Assembly (NCBI RefSeq): GCF_001465295.1
Contig: NZ_CP011034.1
Location: 2,610,001-2,642,000, forward strand
DNA: 32,000 nucleotides
Source: Pseudoalteromonas translucida KMM 520
GTDB lineage: Bacteria; Pseudomonadota; Gammaproteobacteria; Enterobacterales; Alteromonadaceae
Direction of reading: 5' to 3'
Both the position numbers and the translations under genes were made by a program. Within the stretch, counting starts at the first letter, position 1. Every line of letters starts with the position of its first letter. The notes beneath the pieces are model-generated. The model saw only the letters and a list, made by a program, of their open reading frames with translations. It did no database searches and had not been told where the DNA came from. Positions 3,198 through 27,666 of this stretch are shown in pieces.

Positions 3198-3701
<504 letters not shown>

Positions 3702-3708
3702 ACTAACG

Positions 3709-3729
3709 AGCGCATTACTTAAGTGCGCT
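3709..3729. terminator. weak hairpin between convergent coaD and membrane paralogue 3
   Basis: AGCGCA (3709-3714) pairs with TGCGCT (3724-3729) around a 9-nt loop that contains the stop codon of the minus-strand gene. There is no clear U-tract on either strand. Confidence 0.25.
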
Positions 3730-4239
3730 ATTCAAACTATTAACTCGCATTTTTGTTTTATTATATATCCAGGCTAACCCTAATAAATCTTTATTAATAA
3801 TCAGCACCAAAGCCATTAGTAAGTCAATTGAGATAGTACCTATAACGTATACAGCCCAAAACCACCAATAATCAATATTACCAATAATAACAGTGTCATA
3901 ATGCATGCCTAAAAATAGCATCGCATTAATGCTCATTCCTGTAATTAAATATATAAGTGCCGTAGGGATCGTAAACTTTGTTTTAATACCCCAAATTATT
4001 ACTATTAATATGGTAACAATATCAAACATAAAATAATCTAAATAGGTAACTGTTTTTAAGCTTAGTACTGCACTAGAAGAGTAAGAAACCATCATAATAA
4101 GCGATAGCTGTACCCTACTTTTATCAGGTTTATTAATACTCGACGATAAATTAAATAAAAAGGCGATTAGAAATAGCCAAGTAACAAAGGCGCTTATGTT
4201 TTCACCTAAATCAACAATAAACCTTAAAAAATCAATCAT
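3715..4239 (-). CDS. uncharacterised five-helix membrane protein, paralogue 3 of a tandem triplet
   Basis: 174 aa with about five hydrophobic segments. It shares SAF..W.FL.AF.F, M[YH][YF]D, N.[DE].W[WL].W.VY, IDLLM and [KR]D[FL]LGL with the two upstream genes. Its ATG overlaps the preceding stop (ATGATTGA, 8 nt). I recognise no family. Confidence 0.75.
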   Translation of the reverse strand: MIDFLRFIVDLGENISAFVTWLFLIAFLFNLSSSINKPDKSRVQLSLIMMVSYSSSAVLSLKTVTYLDYFMFDIVTILIVIIWGIKTKFTIPTALIYLITGMSINAMLFLGMHYDTVIIGNIDYWWFWAVYVIGTISIDLLMALVLIINKDLLGLAWIYNKTKMRVNSLNSALK

Positions 4240-4765
4240 TCGAGTTTATACCCACACAGCTATTATCATCTTTGCCTATTAATCTTAGAACAGATGATTT
4301 TAGCTTTATCAAACCCAAAAAGTCTTTATTTATAAAAAGCACTGTAATCATGAGTAAATCGATAACGTTAACGCCAATTGAATAAACACTCCAAAGCCAC
4401 CACTCGTCAATATTATTTAATACATACAAGTCGTAATACATCACTAACATTAACGACGAATTGAGCGTTAAACCAATTAAAATATAATTAATAGCGGGGC
4501 AATTCTTTATTGAAGAGGTTTTAAAGTAAACAATTAATAATACTGTAATTGTTAATAAATCATAAAGAGTAAAATTGAGGTATACATTGCTTAATATAGA
4601 AAGTACTTCACTCATGGAGTACGAGAAAAGCATAATGCCTGCAATATATAAAAGTGACTTATTTGTGTTATTTATACTTGAAGCTAAGCAAAATAAAAAA
4701 GCCATTAAAAAGCCCCATTGAATAAATGCACTTATATAATCGGCCAAAATAAAGTCTACGTACAT
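4232..4765 (-). CDS. uncharacterised five-helix membrane protein, paralogue 2 of a tandem triplet
   Basis: 177 aa with the same helix pattern and motifs (MYYD, NIDEWWLWSVY, VIDLLM, NKDFLGL). It starts 4 nt after the stop of paralogue 1 and has no SD of its own, which suggests translational coupling. Confidence 0.75.
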   Translation of the reverse strand: MYVDFILADYISAFIQWGFLMAFLFCLASSINNTNKSLLYIAGIMLFSYSMSEVLSILSNVYLNFTLYDLLTITVLLIVYFKTSSIKNCPAINYILIGLTLNSSLMLVMYYDLYVLNNIDEWWLWSVYSIGVNVIDLLMITVLFINKDFLGLIKLKSSVLRLIGKDDNSCVGINSND

Positions 4766-4769
4766 ATAA

Positions 4770-5303
4770 TTAAGGGGTATAATTTATTTTAGATTTTTTG
4801 AATAAAGACAAGGTTTTGTTTTTTAGCTTGTGTAAGCCAAGAAAGTCTCGATCGACAATTAGAGCAACTATCATTAATAGATCTATTATATTTACCGAGA
4901 AAGTATAAACATCCCAAAAAAGCCAGGGCTCTCGGTTTCCACTTACATATATATCAAAATACATACATAGGCTAAATATAGAGTTTAGTACTAACCCTAG
5001 AATGATATATAAAAAAGAACAGGTTGTTTTTTTTGTCACGAAATAAGCTAAAGCTAGTATGAAAATAGTCGCATAGTCATATAAAGCCCAATCTAAATAT
5101 ACTGAATTTCGAACTGACAACCAAGTAAAAAAGTAATCTGAGATTGTATACGAAGCCATCATGATAAATGAACTGAGCAATAAGGTTGTATTTCTTTTTA
5201 CACCTAATGAAAAAACAAAGGTGTTAAAAAAAAATGCCATCAAAAACCCCCAAGAGGCAAAAGCTGACAACGAAAACAAACCAAAAAACTCAGTTAGAAA
5301 CAT
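4770..5303 (-). CDS. uncharacterised five-helix membrane protein, paralogue 1 of a tandem triplet
   Basis: 177 aa with the same helix pattern and motifs (MYFD, NREPWLFWDVY, IIDLLM, DRDFLGL). It starts 21 nt after the stop of the small Gln-rich ORF. Confidence 0.75.
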   Translation of the reverse strand: MFLTEFFGLFSLSAFASWGFLMAFFFNTFVFSLGVKRNTTLLLSSFIMMASYTISDYFFTWLSVRNSVYLDWALYDYATIFILALAYFVTKKTTCSFLYIILGLVLNSIFSLCMYFDIYVSGNREPWLFWDVYTFSVNIIDLLMIVALIVDRDFLGLHKLKNKTLSLFKKSKINYTP

Positions 5304-5324: not shown

Positions 5325-5516
5325 TTATTTAGGACGAACAACTATCACTCCACCACGCTGAAGTTCTGTACCGCTAGCCGCCATAGCTTCTTGAGAGAAG
5401 CTTACTGTATCAGATTGCAGGGTTTTAGGGCTAGCAGTTTGTTCCATTGCTGGCTTTAATTGTTGCGTTTTATTGTATGCTTGCATTTGTAGTTGGCTGT
5501 TAGCTGAAACTTGCAT
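5325..5516 (-). CDS. small Gln-rich soluble protein (63 aa), unknown function
   Basis: The internal ATG at 5516 is preceded by AAGGAA with a 7-nt spacer (acAAGGAAtaatcacATG). The sigma54 promoter lies inside the longer 124-aa reading of the track, so the short form is favoured. Product: MQVSANSQLQMQAYNKTQQLKPAMEQTASPKTLQSDTVSFSQEAMAASGTELQRGGVIVVRPK. It has 10 Gln, no Cys/Trp/His, and no signal peptide or TM segment. Confidence 0.55.
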   Translation of the reverse strand: MQVSANSQLQMQAYNKTQQLKPAMEQTASPKTLQSDTVSFSQEAMAASGTELQRGGVIVVRPK

Positions 5517-5654
5517 GTGATTATTCCTTGTAAGTGTTTTTGTATTATTGGCGTAATCTTGTATTACACCTTTAAAAGGGGTAATTAAATCTACCTTATA
5601 TTTAGCAGCAACCTTCTCATCAAGACTGTTACTGCATTTTACACTTGTAACAAA

Positions 5655-5670
5655 AGCAACCACTGTGCCA
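5655..5670 (-). promoter_or_regulatory. sigma54 (RpoN) -24/-12 promoter
   Basis: The minus strand reads T-TGGCAC-AGTGG-TTGCT, matching every conserved position of TGGCAC-N5-TTGCW with canonical GG/GC spacing. It lies about 75 nt downstream of the argH(A) terminator and 139 nt upstream of the ATG at 5516. Confidence 0.7.
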
Positions 5671-5741
5671 ACTTTTAATTGACAGTTAAAAATAACCATA
5701 AAACTTTATACTTATACCTAAAGTGAGTGTTTTTTACCCAT

Positions 5742-5774
5742 AAAAAAACGCACGAGGGTAACCCGTACGTTTTT
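5742..5774 (-). terminator. rho-independent terminator of argH(A)
   Basis: The minus-strand RNA is AAAAACGUAC-GGG-uua-CCC-(uc)-GUGCGUUUUUUU: a GC-containing stem with a 2-nt bulge and one G-U pair, followed by 7 U. It starts 14 nt after the argH(A) stop. Confidence 0.7.
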
Positions 5775-5787
5775 ACATCTAGGGAGT

Positions 5788-7653
5788 TTAAGCCACGAAT
5801 TTACACGGGATCTCCGCTTTATTACTTAGCTTTAAAATATATTCCATTGCTACTTCATCGCAGTTTTCTTTACGTAAACAAAGCTCACAATCTTTCATTA
5901 CTTTTTCTGGTAAGCTTTCTTTGGTACAAAAGCTAAAACGCTGTTTTTCAAAAAAATCGGGGACTCGGGTTAGCACTATTACTCTATTTAACGCCAATTT
6001 TTTGGCTTTCGCTAATAAATGCTCAACTAGCTGCCGCCCTTGTCCTGATACTGCGCTTTGTGGATCTATACCCAAAGAACGAATTTCCGCCAAACCTGTG
6101 TCGTAAATATACAGTGAAGCACACCCAGATACTTTACCGTTAATTTCGGTAACAGCAAATTCGTTAATCGAATGCACCATATCGCTTTTAGCGCGTGGTA
6201 GGTTTTCGCCTACCGTAGCCCAATGCTGAACCAGTTTAGCTATCGACTCAACATCGTCTAAATTAGCATCACGAACCGTTATTTGCTGTTTTTTTTTCGC
6301 TGCTTTAATAGCGCTGGTTACTTGTTCAATTGATGTTCCGCCAAGTGCTTGACGCGCTTTAATACAGGCGTCAATTTCTAGTACCGGATAAACATCATCT
6401 GCAAATACATCACTTACCGATTTATATTGCTCAAGCGATAAGTCTTCCAGTGTTTTACCTTCACTAATGGCCAACTGTACCAGCACACCTACAATATGGT
6501 GCCCTTCTCTAAAAGGTACGCCCTTAGCTACTAAGTAGTCAGCAAGCTCAGTTGCATTTGCATGGCCACCTTTTGCCGCTGCAAGTGTACGTTCGCCTTT
6601 TACTTTAATTCCTTTAATACACGCTTGTGCCATATGAATACAGGCAAGCCACGTTGGCATAGCGTCAAATATGCCCTCTTTATCTTCTTGCATATCTTTA
6701 TTATAAGCAAGTGGCAGTGCTTTTAGGGTCATCATCATGGCGCTAAACGCACCAAAAACACGTCCGGTTTTACCACGAATTAGTTCCAGTGCATCAGGGT
6801 TCTTTTTTTGTGGCATTAACGACGAGCCCGATGTCACATTATCTGCAAGCTCTATAAATCCGGCTTCGCCTGAGTTATAAAAAATAAGATCTTCTGACAT
6901 ACGCGATAAGTGAATCATCGAAATAGACGCACAACTTAATAGCTCTACTACAAAATCACGATCAGATACGCCATCAAGGCTATTTTTAGTGGCTCCTGTA
7001 AAGCCTAAACCTTGTGCCAATGCTTGACGATCAATAGGATAAGCCGTACCCGCTAATGCACCACTGCCCAGTGGGCAAAAGTTCATCCGCGCTTTAGCAT
7101 CTTGCAGGCGGCTTTCATCACGCTCTAGCATTTCTACGTAAGCCATACACCAGTGACTAAACAATACCGGTTGTGCACGTTGTAAATGCGTATAACCAGG
7201 TAAAATAGTCCCTAGCTCACGCTCTGCTAATGCAACAAACTCACCCTTTAACTGGGCAATAGCTTTTAAAATATGATCGGCAGTGTCGCGACACCACAAT
7301 CTAAAATCGGTGGCTACTTGGTCATTACGGCTGCGCCCTGTATGTAATTTTTTAGCTAAATCACCTACTTTTTCGATTAACGCAGCTTCAACATGTGAAT
7401 GAATATCTTCTGCGCCTGAAGTTGCTACCGCTTGTGGATCTGCTTTTACTTCTTCAAGCAGTTGGTATAATGCTGCAACTAATTCTTGGTGCTCGTCACT
7501 TGATAACACATTAACTTGCTCAAGTGCGCCAGCCCATGCAACAGAGCCTATAATATCTTGCTCTGCTAATTGATAATCGAAAGGAAGAGAGTCGTTAAAT
7601 TGCTTAAACGCCTCGTCTGGACCCGTAGAAAAACGCCCGCCCCATAATGCCAT
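5788..7653 (-). CDS. argH: bifunctional argininosuccinate lyase fused to a C-terminal GNAT (N-acetylglutamate synthase-like) domain
   Basis: 621 aa. Residues 1 to about 458 are colinear with E. coli ArgH ([46 protein letters not shown] signature). Residues from about 465 to 621 (nt about 5788-6270) form an acetyltransferase fold with the acetyl-CoA motif [12 protein letters not shown]. This argH(A) fusion is described for Moritella and other marine gammaproteobacteria. Confidence 0.93.
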
Positions 7654-7702: not shown

Positions 7703-8905
7703 TTACTTTTTAGCTAATGCTTTTATTCTGCTTGAAAGCGAGAATAAACGAATAAAGCCTTCTGCGTGTGATTGGTCGTACACATCATCTTCACCAAAGG
7801 TAGCAAACGCTTCGCTGTATAAGCTGTGTGGCGACTGTTTTTGCACTGCGGTAACTTGGCCTTTGTATAGCTTAAGCACAACTTCACCTGTTGCATCTTT
7901 AGAAAGCGCTTCAGCACCAGCTAAAATAGAGTCTTTAAGTGGTGTAAACCAACGACCGTCATACACTAAATGTGCAAACTCGCCACCCAGTACTTCTTTC
8001 CACTTACGGCTTGCTTTATCAAGCACTAGTTCGTCAATGGCTTGCAGTGCCGCCATCATTACAGTACCACCTGGGGTTTCGTAACAACCGCGCGATTTCA
8101 TACCCACTAAACGGTTTTCTACAATATCAACACGACCAACACCATGCACAGAGGCAATATCGTTTAATTTAACTAAACAATCGTATGGTTTAAGCTGCTC
8201 ACCGTTTACTGCAACAACTTCACCTTCAACTACATTTAGTGTTACTAGTTCAGCTTTATCTGGCGCTTGCTCTGGAGAGTTTGTCCAGGTCCACACTTTT
8301 TCACTTGGTTGGCACCATGGATCTTCAAGTTCGCCGCCTTCGTGCGAAATATGCCATGCGTTTGCATCACGGCTATAAATTTTTGTAGCCGATGCCGAAC
8401 ATGGAATATCGCGCTCAGCTAAGTAATCTAGCAATGACTCACGGCTTGATAAATCCCACTCACGCCATGGTGCAATTACTTGTAAATCAGGGGCAAGCGC
8501 TGCAAAACACGATTCAAAACGTACTTGGTCGTTACCTTTACCAGTACAACCATGAGAAAGTGCATCGGCACCCACTTTACGCGCAATTTCTACCTGTGCT
8601 TTAGCAATAATTGGGCGCGCCATAGACGTACCTAATAAATAAGTACCTTCGTAAATTGAGCCTGTTTTTAGCGTAGGATAAATGTAATCACTTACCATTT
8701 CGTCTTTTAAGTCAACTACATAACACTCAGAAGCACCCGATGCGATAGCTTTAGCTTCTACGCCTTCAAGCTCCTCTGCACCTTGGCCAACATCGGCCAC
8801 AAAGGCAATAACTTCACAGCCGTAATTTTCTTTTAACCATGGCACAATGGCCGACGTATCAAGTCCACCTGAATAGGCTAAAACGACTTTTTTAAATGAA
8901 CTCAT
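7703..8905 (-). CDS. argG: argininosuccinate synthase
   Basis: 400 aa. The N-terminus [14 protein letters not shown] is the ATP pyrophosphatase P-loop of type I Arg[14 protein letters not shown] and [18 protein letters not shown] are also conserved. The start overlaps the argF stop (ATGA). Confidence 0.96.
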
Positions 8906-27574: not shown

Positions 27575-27666
27575 TAAACAAAATAAGTGCCTTTAAACAT
27601 ATAAATGATGGCTATTAAGTTGCTTTGCACTAGACTGGCTGTTCTTTATTTTAATAGTTAGTATCA

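What the first reader, a model, noticed from the sequence alone, without database searches (positions are those of the whole stretch)
5655..5670. Full-consensus RpoN promoter hidden inside the predicted 124-aa ORF
The minus strand reads T-TGGCAC-AGTGG-TTGCT. Every conserved position of TGGCAC-N5-TTGCW is matched, with the canonical GG-to-GC spacing. Under a uniform-composition approximation, ten fixed bases are expected about 0.06 times by chance in 64 kb of two-strand sequence (64000/4^10). This copy also sits on the coding strand, about 75 nt after a terminator and 139 nt before an ATG with a good SD. It falls inside the track ORF 5325..5699, which argues that ORF is over-extended and the real gene starts at 5516. 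Sigma54 promoters need a bacterial enhancer-binding protein, and none is encoded in this window, so the cassette must be wired into a distal regulon (flagellar FlrA/FlrC-type, nitrogen, stress and so on).
Basis: partly seen in the sequence, partly recalled or inferred. Interest (0 to 1): 0.6.

Follow-up and report, generated by a model that had tools for sequence, protein, structure and literature searches.

The report
Conserved sigma-54 promoter before orphan operon
A textbook sigma-54 (RpoN) promoter sequence sits between the arginine genes and a Pseudoalteromonas-specific operon of unknown function, and its key bases are kept in every related species examined, so it is very probably a real but ordinary promoter rather than part of a protein-coding gene.

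Summary
The motif TGGCACAGTGGTTGCT is present at 5655-5670 on the minus strand. It is the only full match in the window (0.02 expected by chance). The window is from Pseudoalteromonas (translucida/nigrifaciens group).

The site lies 70 nt after the argH-argA intrinsic terminator. It is 139 nt before a conserved ATG (5516) that has an invariant AAGGA Shine-Dalgarno sequence.

The 124-aa ORF is an over-extension:
- Homologues are 64-69 aa.
- Conservation starts at the Met encoded at 5516.
- The other 37 loci have in-frame stops 1-32 codons upstream.
- Public databases hold the 63-aa form only.

In all 37 other orthologous loci with upstream sequence, and in two more distant loci, a GG-N10-GC element sits at the same place. 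TTGG and TTGC are invariant, while the spacer and the rest of the intergenic DNA vary freely.

The promoter should drive a structured leader of about 128 nt, a 63-aa protein and three paralogous 5-TM membrane proteins. These belong to an orphan family with 1 to at least 6 tandem copies per species.

No enhancer-binding protein is encoded in the window, and no conserved enhancer site was found. The activator and the operon's function remain unknown.

This is a new member of a known kind, of modest interest.

The parts
5655..5671 (-). Sigma-54 type -24/-12 promoter element T-TGGCAC-AGTGG-TTGCT. GG is at 5668-5669 and GC at 5656-5657.
   Evidence: Exact and unique match in the window and the top score in the window scan. 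TTGG and TTGC are invariant in 38/38 loci. TGGCAY-N5-TTGCW occurs 14 times in 225 kb of orthologous loci, all 14 at this position.
5672..5691 (-). A-rich stretch (AAAAG) immediately upstream of the -24 element, and an AT-rich palindrome TTTTAACTG-T-CAATTAAAA (5673-5691).
   Evidence: The AAAAG stretch is conserved in the anchored profile. The palindrome was found. TGTCAA is shared only by clade-1 loci. Function unknown.
5643..5646 (-). Predicted transcription start, with +1 about G5644, which is 12 nt downstream of the C of the -12 GC.
   Evidence: Inferred from the standard sigma-54 geometry. Not mapped experimentally.
5517..5644 (-). Predicted 5' leader of 128 nt with three hairpins, at about 5605-5635, 5580-5595 and 5550-5570.
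   Evidence: MFE -29.1 kcal/mol, z = -3.5. All 14 leaders from diverse species have negative z (-0.9 to -3.9) and a similar three-hairpin layout. The central hairpin of clade 2 shows GC<->AU and CG<->UA compensatory changes. No Rfam family matches.
5525..5529 (-). Shine-Dalgarno AAGGA, 8 nt before the ATG at 5516.
   Evidence: AGGA is invariant and the preceding A nearly invariant in the alignments of 31-38 loci.
5325..5516 (-). True small gene of 63 aa. The N-terminal ~47 residues are conserved and Gln-rich. The C-terminal tail is variable and ends in (R/K)PK.
   Evidence: Homologues are 64-69 aa and limited to Pseudoalteromonas. Conservation begins at M1. The exact 63-aa sequence is in public databases as a hypothetical or orphan protein. 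No Pfam, NCBIfam, PADLOC, PHROG or PDB sequence match. AF2 predicts two helices with pLDDT 59.
5517..5699 (-). Spurious 61-codon N-terminal extension of the 124-aa ORF. This is non-coding DNA that holds the promoter and the leader.
   Evidence: The frame is open only in the window. The other 37 loci have an in-frame stop 1-32 codons upstream of the ATG. The region is full of indels across species. The 124-aa sequence is absent from the 15-billion protein collection.
4770..5303 (-). Membrane protein paralogue A (177 aa, 5 predicted TM helices).
   Evidence: AF2 model has pLDDT 74 and pTM 0.72. No PDB fold match, all E > 1. No Pfam or NCBIfam match. The family has only 107 representative clusters among 1.84 billion proteins.
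4232..4765 (-). Membrane protein paralogue B (177 aa).
   Evidence: 45% identical to paralogue A. A 4-nt gap separates it from the upstream gene.
3715..4239 (-). Membrane protein paralogue C (174 aa), the last gene of the predicted operon.
   Evidence: 36% identical to paralogue A. It overlaps paralogue B by 8 nt. A short hairpin AGCGCA...TGCGCT straddles its stop codon at the convergent junction with coaD.
5742..5774 (-). Intrinsic terminator of argH-argA, which isolates the cassette from the arg operon.
   Evidence: 13-bp stem plus U7, dG -19.3 kcal/mol, z -3.6. Nearly invariant across 38 loci.
5788..7653 (-). argH-argA fusion gene (argininosuccinate lyase fused to N-acetyltransferase), the upstream neighbour.
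   Evidence: Pfam Lyase_1, ASL_C2 and Acetyltransf_1; NCBIfam PRK12308 at 1129 bits.

Best explanation
This is a functional sigma-54 (RpoN)-dependent promoter in the argH-coaD intergenic cassette of Pseudoalteromonas.

Proposed mechanism:
- Sigma-54 RNA polymerase binds the -24 GG (5668-5669) and the -12 GC (5656-5657) and waits as a closed complex.
- An enhancer-binding ATPase encoded elsewhere in the genome remodels it to an open complex.
- Transcription starts near G5644.
- The transcript carries a 128-nt three-hairpin leader, then a 63-aa protein (ATG 5516), then three tightly packed paralogous 5-TM membrane protein genes (down to 3715).
- The strong argH-argA terminator 70 nt upstream makes the cassette an independent transcription unit.

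Shown here: the motif, its uniqueness, its non-coding context, its genus-wide conservation pattern, the gene structure, and the absence of a local activator.

Inferred: sigma-54 binding, the start site, operon co-transcription, and activator dependence.

Unknown: the identity of the activator, the inducing signal and the cassette's function.
For: - Exact, unique 16/16 match to TGGCAC-N5-TTGCW, with 0.02 expected. PMC12316311 states the consensus as TGGCAC-N5-7-TTGCT.
- It is the best GG-N10-GC site in the window.
- It lies in non-coding DNA, between a validated terminator and a conserved ATG with an SD.
- Phylogenetic footprint. TTGG and TTGC are invariant in 38/38 loci at fixed spacing. There are 20 distinct 16-mers, and the surrounding intergenic DNA is rich in indels and substitutions.
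- There is exactly one such element per upstream region. 37 of the 51 TTGG-N8-TTGC occurrences in 225 kb are at this position, against an expected 0.006 per target.
- Two more distant syntenic loci (L043, L045) have different terminators and small ORFs that are not alignable to the window's. They still place TTGGATCGATCATTGCT and TTGGCATAGGCTGTGCA between the argH terminator and the small ORF.
- No sigma-70-like promoter is predicted on this strand between the terminator and the ATG.
- RNA structure conserved from just after the predicted +1 implies that this stretch is transcribed.
- The genus uses RpoN with FleQ, FlrC and PspF (PMC11882849).
Against: - There is no experimental evidence. No TSS mapping, rpoN mutant or bEBP mutant data for this locus was found in the searchable literature.
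- No conserved enhancer dyad and no IHF-consensus site were detected upstream.
- The upstream spacer is short and variable, 43-131 nt from the terminator to TTGG.
- In the larger clade (21 of 38 loci) the -24 element is TTGGATC rather than TGGCAC. That is a weaker match at -23/-22, and it is embedded in a GATC cluster, so part of the conservation there could serve another DNA-binding function.
- rpoN itself could not be checked in this genome because only 32 kb is available.
Confidence: 0.8

Rival explanations
1. The conserved TTGG-N8-TTGC is the operator of another DNA-binding protein, or part of a sigma-70-type promoter (TTGGCA as a -35 element). Its resemblance to a sigma-54 promoter would then be coincidental.
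For: TTGGCA is 5/6 of the -35 consensus. In clade 2 the element contains GATC and is flanked by two helically phased GATC sites, which suggests that some other protein or Dam methylation acts there. No enhancer site was found.
Against: - The two invariant blocks are exactly the -24 and -12 cores at the obligatory spacing, and 14 loci match the full TGGCAY-N5-TTGCW.
- Candidate -10 hexamers lie 12-16 nt from TTGGCA/TTGGAT, mostly too short a spacing, and are not conserved in sequence or position (my reading of the sequences).
- The sigma-70 scan found nothing on this strand between the terminator and the ATG.
Confidence: 0.1
2. Sigma-54 holoenzyme binds the site, but mainly as a stable closed complex. 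It would then act as a roadblock or insulator against read-through from the arg operon, or as a repressor, rather than as the productive promoter of the cassette.
For: The site lies directly downstream of the argH-argA terminator. No activator site could be identified. Sigma-54 closed complexes are known to be long-lived (established knowledge).
Against: - The terminator is already strong.
- No other promoter is predicted for the cassette.
- The element keeps a constant distance window to the ATG (130-158 nt) while its distance to the terminator varies (43-131 nt), so it is tied to the downstream gene.
Confidence: 0.06
3. The motif is a chance match inside a genuine 124-aa protein-coding gene (5325-5699).
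For: The ORF is open in this window. At 0.02 expected per window, one chance hit is not impossible across a whole-genome scan.
Against: - The upstream frame is closed in all 37 other loci.
- There is no protein conservation before M62 of the 124-aa ORF.
- The region has non-triplet indels.
- The 124-aa protein is absent from public collections, while the 63-aa protein is present.
- The motif core is conserved while the neighbouring 'codons' are not.
Confidence: 0.02

Closest known systems
Canonical enterobacterial and pseudomonad sigma-54 promoters (e.g. glnAp2, pspA, Pu). Consensus TGGCAC-N5-TTGCW (Barrios et al. 1999, from my own knowledge; PMC12316311).
   Same: GG/GC cores at the obligatory spacing, a full consensus match, an A/T-rich flank, an intergenic position, and the same orientation as the downstream operon.
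   Different: No recognisable enhancer dyad or IHF site. The upstream space is very short before a terminator. The leader is long (128 nt) and structured. The target genes are orphans.
E. coli pspG: a stand-alone sigma-54/PspF-dependent gene for a small membrane protein, located away from its activator (my own knowledge, not tested here).
   Same: A sigma-54 promoter in front of small or membrane proteins of unclear function, with the activator encoded elsewhere.
   Different: No sequence relation to Psp proteins. No PspF-type upstream sites were identified. Here there is a tandem array of paralogues plus a small soluble protein.
FleQ- and FlrC-dependent flagellar promoters of Pseudomonas and Vibrio, some with enhancer sites downstream of the start site (Jyot 2002 and Correa & Klose 2005, my own knowledge). 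The RpoN/FleQ/FlrC hierarchy is described for P. fuliginea in PMC11882849.
   Same: A sigma-54 promoter with little usable upstream DNA and a long leader, which could in principle house downstream activator sites. The genus has these activators.
   Different: No flagellar gene is nearby. The small protein does not match FlgM or any flagellar family. The leader dyads contain G-U pairs and compensatory changes, which fits RNA hairpins better than protein-binding sites.

Membership tests
Sigma-54 (RpoN)-dependent promoter | GG at -24 and GC at -12 with exact GG-N10-GC spacing, matching TGGCAC-N5-TTGCW | tested here: met
   16/16 match at 5655-5670 on the minus strand. It is unique in the window, with 0.02 expected, and has the top score.
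Sigma-54 (RpoN)-dependent promoter | Lies in non-coding DNA upstream of a gene and in the same orientation as it | tested here: met
   It lies between the argH-argA terminator and the conserved ATG at 5516. The 124-aa ORF was shown to be spurious.
Sigma-54 (RpoN)-dependent promoter | The -24/-12 cores are conserved in orthologous loci while the spacer and flanks drift | tested here: met
   TTGG and TTGC are invariant in 38/38 loci, with 20 distinct 16-mers. 37 of the 51 occurrences in 225 kb are at this position. The element is also present in the distant loci L043 and L045.
Sigma-54 (RpoN)-dependent promoter | The host encodes sigma-54 | not testable with these tools
   rpoN is not in the 32-kb window and the rest of the genome is not available. 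The literature describes RpoN with FleQ, FlrC and PspF in P. fuliginea (PMC11882849).
Sigma-54 (RpoN)-dependent promoter | A cognate enhancer-binding protein and its binding sites (UAS) | tested here: inconclusive
   No bEBP is encoded in the window. There is no IHF-consensus site. No upstream motif other than the terminator is shared genus-wide. Only window-specific repeats were found.
Sigma-54 (RpoN)-dependent promoter | Transcription start about 11-13 nt downstream of the GC, and expression dependent on rpoN | not testable with these tools
   No TSS or mutant data were found. Indirect support: conserved RNA structure begins just downstream of the predicted +1.
Sigma-54-driven small RNA (GlmY/GlmZ-like or other Rfam family) | A match to a curated RNA family, and a terminator before the next ORF | tested here: not met
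   No Rfam hit at the gathering score. Only sub-threshold noise appeared at E <= 10. There is no terminator between the leader hairpins and the ATG.
Phage-shock (Psp) operon | PspA, PspB or PspC domains in the products | tested here: not met
   No Pfam or NCBIfam match for the small protein or the three membrane proteins.
FlgM anti-sigma-28 factor (considered for the small protein because of its D-x-V-x-x-S-x-E-A motif) | A match to Pfam FlgM (PF04316), i.e. the C-terminal sigma-28-binding helices | tested here: not met
   No FlgM hit at E <= 0.1. The PDB profile search returned nothing relevant. The protein ends shortly after the motif.

The most novel reading that the evidence does not exclude
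The promoter may be the control point of a previously undescribed envelope system restricted to Pseudoalteromonas. The system consists of a small protein with a conserved N-terminus and a hypervariable RGG-hydrophobic-(R/K)PK tail, followed by an array of orphan 5-TM proteins whose copy number varies from 1 to at least 6 between species (for example a ligand/receptor or toxin/immunity-like array), all under sigma-54 control. In the sister clade, the -24 element has become TTGGATC and is flanked by two helically phased GATC sites. That would make it a sigma-54 promoter sensitive to Dam methylation or SeqA, i.e. an epigenetic or cell-cycle switch, which to my knowledge has not been described for sigma-54.
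Probability: 0.12. Interest if true: 0.55.

Novelty: new member of a known kind. Interest (0 to 1): 0.3.

Why it matters
It assigns a regulatory class (sigma-54, and therefore activator-gated and tightly off by default) to a conserved orphan operon that sits in the core genome of a widespread marine genus. That gives experimenters a concrete handle for finding the inducing signal and the function of the operon: an rpoN mutant, a bEBP deletion series and a -24/-12 point-mutant fusion. It also shows that the 124-aa mechanical ORF call used as the first-stage track is over-extended. Public records already list the 63-aa form. Beyond that it is a routine promoter prediction and it does not change what is understood about sigma-54.

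Tried and rejected
- **Rfam:** gathering and permissive thresholds on the leader and promoter region gave no family. The GlmY-like sRNA idea was dropped.
- **Pfam, NCBIfam, PADLOC, PHROGs:** no matches for the small protein or the three membrane proteins, including distant family members.
- **AF2 plus Foldseek against the PDB for paralogue A:** no hit with E < 1.
- **PDB profile search and AF2 for the small protein:** uninformative.
- **IHF consensus scan:** no site between the terminator and the promoter.
- **Repeat search:** only window-specific AT-rich repeats.
- **Unbiased shared k-mer search for an enhancer:** only the terminator and A-tracts are shared.
- **RNAalifold on the clade-level leader alignments:** largely failed because of indels. 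I fell back on per-sequence folding.
- **Sigma-70 alternative:** the scan gave no hit on this strand between the terminator and the ATG, and candidate -10 hexamers sit at wrong, unconserved spacings.
- **Literature:** searches for rpoN mutants, TSS maps or any mention of this locus in Pseudoalteromonas found nothing. I could not verify my recollection of a malate-inducible sigma-54 promoter in TAC125 in the held library, so I did not use it.
- **Homology of the L043/L045 small ORFs to the window's small protein:** not supported statistically. I treat them as positional equivalents only.

Full report
**Observation**

The minus strand at 5670->5655 reads TGGCACAGTGGTTGCT and is preceded by T at 5671.
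- It is the only exact match to TGGCAC-N5-TTGCW in the 32-kb window on either strand.
- Dinucleotide-preserving shuffles give 0.02 matches per window.
- In a weighted scan of every GG-N10-GC site in the window it is the only one with a perfect score.
- PMC12316311 quotes the consensus as TGGCAC-N5-7-TTGCT.
- Against the extended consensus of Barrios et al. 1999 (mrNrYTGGCACGrNNNTTGCWNNw, from my own knowledge), the window sequence AAAGT-TGGCACAG-TGG-TTGCT-TT-T misses only the weakly conserved G at -20.

**Context**

The window is from Pseudoalteromonas. The first membrane protein has a 100% match annotated as P. translucida, and the exact small protein is deposited under P. nigrifaciens and other Pseudoalteromonas accessions.

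The order on the minus strand is as follows.
- argG (7703-8905).
- The argH-argA fusion (5788-7653).
- An intrinsic terminator at 5742-5774, with a 13-bp stem plus U7, dG -19.3 kcal/mol and z -3.6.
- 70 nt of AT-rich spacer.
- The motif.
- 139 nt of sequence down to an ATG at 5516, which is preceded by AAGGA with an 8-nt spacing.
- A 63-aa ORF.
- Three paralogous genes of about 177 aa, at 4770-5303, 4232-4765 and 3715-4239. The gaps and overlaps between them are 21 nt, 4 nt and -8 nt.
- These converge on coaD (3207-3701, + strand).

No sigma-70-like promoter is predicted on this strand between the terminator and the ATG.

**The 124-aa ORF is not a gene**
- Homologues of the C-terminal 63 aa are 64-69 aa long. 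A few are called at 82-86 aa. All come from Pseudoalteromonas or from unassigned metagenome sequences.
- In the alignment, conservation starts exactly at the Met encoded at 5516.
- Across 37 other orthologous loci the frame upstream of that ATG closes after 1-32 codons. Only the window has 63 open codons.
- The DNA there is full of indels between species.
- The exact 63-aa sequence is in public databases as a hypothetical or orphan protein. The 124-aa sequence is not in a 15-billion protein collection.

**Is the motif conserved?**

I fetched 41 loci from GTDB species genomes using the small-protein alignment. Of these, 37 have enough upstream sequence.
- Every one has exactly one TTGG-N8-TTGC element on the coding strand, 130-158 nt before the ATG.
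- Anchoring on it shows TTGG and TTGC at 2 bits (38/38 including the window) and a conserved A-rich stretch just upstream. Everything else is variable, with 20 distinct 16-mers.
- One clade (17 loci, including the window) has TTGGCAC, TTGGCAT, TTGGCGC or TTGGTAT. The other clade (21 loci) has TTGGATC.
- In 225 kb of these loci, TTGG-N8-TTGC occurs 51 times on both strands, and 37 of those are at this position. The background rate predicts 0.006 per 200-nt target.
- TGGCAY-N5-TTGCW occurs 14 times, all 14 at this position.
- The distance from the terminator to the element varies (43-131 nt) more than the distance from the element to the ATG. The element therefore travels with the downstream gene.

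Two more distant syntenic loci were found through remote membrane-protein homologues.
- L043 has an unfused argH that is 83% identical to the window's ArgH domain. L045 is a TARA scaffold.
- Both have their own, different terminators and small ORFs of 55-56 aa. These ORFs are homologous to each other (E 4e-12) but not demonstrably to the window's protein.
- Both still place a GG-N10-GC element between the terminator and the small ORF: TTGGATCGATCATTGCT in L043 and TTGGCATAGGCTGTGCA in L045.

**Transcript**

With standard geometry, +1 falls at about G5644, which gives a 128-nt leader.
- The leader folds into three hairpins: MFE -29.1 kcal/mol with z -3.5, and z -3.2 for a slightly longer stretch.
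- Leaders from 14 diverse species all have negative z-scores (-0.9 to -3.9). They mostly show the same three-hairpin plan, starting within a few nucleotides of the predicted +1, even though the sequences are barely alignable.
- The central hairpin in clade 2 has GC<->AU (7 sequences) and CG<->UA (4 sequences) compensatory changes.
- G-U pairs in several stems argue for RNA-level rather than DNA-level dyads.
- This suggests the stretch directly downstream of the element is transcribed, which is indirect support for a start site there.
- RNAalifold on the whole-clade alignments was otherwise uninformative because of indels.
- No Rfam family matches, and no terminator precedes the ATG. It is therefore a leader and not an sRNA.

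**Products**

The small protein:
- It has a Gln-rich, highly conserved N-terminal part of about 47 residues and a variable tail ending in (R/K)PK.
- AF2 predicts two helices at low confidence.

The membrane proteins:
- They are predicted 5-TM bundles (pLDDT 74) with no PDB neighbour.
- They have no Pfam, NCBIfam, PADLOC or PHROG match.
- The family is tiny, with 107 clusters at 50% identity among 1.84 billion proteins.
- Copy number ranges from 1 to at least 6 tandem paralogues between species, always behind the small gene and between argH and coaD.

The function is unknown.

**Activator**
- I could not find an enhancer. There is no IHF-consensus site, there are only window-specific AT-rich repeats, and no upstream k-mer other than the terminator is shared genus-wide.
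- The genus has RpoN with FleQ, FlrC and PspF (PMC11882849), but nothing here points to one of them.
- A long leader with a short upstream region is compatible with activators that bind close to or downstream of the start, as FleQ and FlrC can (my own knowledge). That is conjecture.

**Rivals**
- A sigma-70 reading (TTGGCA as a -35 element) fails on spacing and on the lack of a conserved -10.
- A non-productive sigma-54 roadblock or insulator role cannot be excluded. It is less parsimonious, because the terminator is strong and the cassette has no other predicted promoter.
- A chance match inside a real CDS is refuted.

**Literature**

I found no report on this locus, no TSS map and no rpoN transcriptome for the genus in the searchable library.

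**Verdict**

It is a well-conserved, very probably functional sigma-54 promoter, and so a new member of a known kind. Interest is modest. The only less ordinary aspects are the following:
- the orphan cassette with variable copy number that the promoter controls;
- the phased GATC triplet built into the promoter in the sister clade, which is not present in this window.

Noticed in passing
L016, L020-L024, L026-L041 (clade 2 loci), about -30 to +6 relative to TTGG; not in the window: 18 of 21 clade-2 loci carry three GATC sites within 53 nt, against about 0.14 expected from 2.6 GATC per kb. They are spaced 9-11 and 19-22 nt apart, so they are helically phased, and the last lies inside the -24 element (TTGGATC). 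Clade 1, which includes the window, has none in 16 of 17 loci. The distant locus L043 has TTGGATCGATCATTGC. This may be a sigma-54 promoter sensitive to Dam methylation or SeqA.
   Followed up: partly
window 3715-5303 and loci L002-L041: The number of tandem 5-TM paralogues behind the small gene varies from 1 (L022) through 3 (the window) to at least 6 (L007, L010, L012, L014). This is an expanding and contracting orphan gene array at a fixed core-genome position between argH and coaD.
   Followed up: partly
window 5325-5380 (C-terminal tail of the small protein); L043:3571-3738; L045:793-963: The tail of the small protein is hypervariable between species, but it keeps a pattern of RGG, a short hydrophobic run and (R/K)PK. 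The small ORFs of the distant loci, which are otherwise not alignable, end in a similar motif: GARGGGFIAVEPKK and GARGGGGFIVPEK.
   Followed up: partly
window 27609-27624 (+): A second intergenic sigma-54-like site, TGGCTATTAAGTTGCT, scored 19 of 22. Its last base lies 42 nt before the ATG (27667) of a 2OG-Fe(II) oxygenase gene that follows a LysR-family regulator gene. Its conservation was not examined.
   Followed up: no
L002, L005-L014, L017, L019-L020, L024-L027, L033, L035, L037-L041, just downstream of the argH terminator: A block CTGGTCGGAG / CTGGTCAGAT / CTGGTATGACC follows the terminator in most species. It is absent from the window, from L003, L004 and L022, and from the P. shioyasakiensis-type loci (including L016, L034 and L036). 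Its function is unknown.
   Followed up: no
window 5742-5774 and all loci: The argH-argA terminator hairpin, loop included, is almost invariant in sequence across 38 species, while the DNA right after it is highly variable. It is the only upstream element shared genus-wide. It lies 43-131 nt upstream of TTGG, which is within the usual range for an enhancer.
   Followed up: partly
L043:6195-7559, L044:1298-2674, L045:2057-3109: In the more distant relatives, a capsule-assembly wzi gene sits between the membrane-paralogue array and coaD. One very distant lone homologue (L047) lies next to a sugar epimerase and an aminotransferase. These are faint hints of a link to envelope polysaccharide.
   Followed up: no
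window 5246-5258 (-): A terminator-like hairpin, GCCTCTTGGGGGT followed by TTTTGATGGC, lies about 45 nt into the first membrane-protein gene. It is probably chance (4 found against 4.7 expected in the region) but could attenuate transcription.
   Followed up: no
window 5788-7653 vs L043:1936-3318: ArgH is fused to an ArgA-like GNAT domain in the window and in most loci. In L043 it is an unfused 460-aa protein, even though the lyase domain is 83% identical.
   Followed up: no
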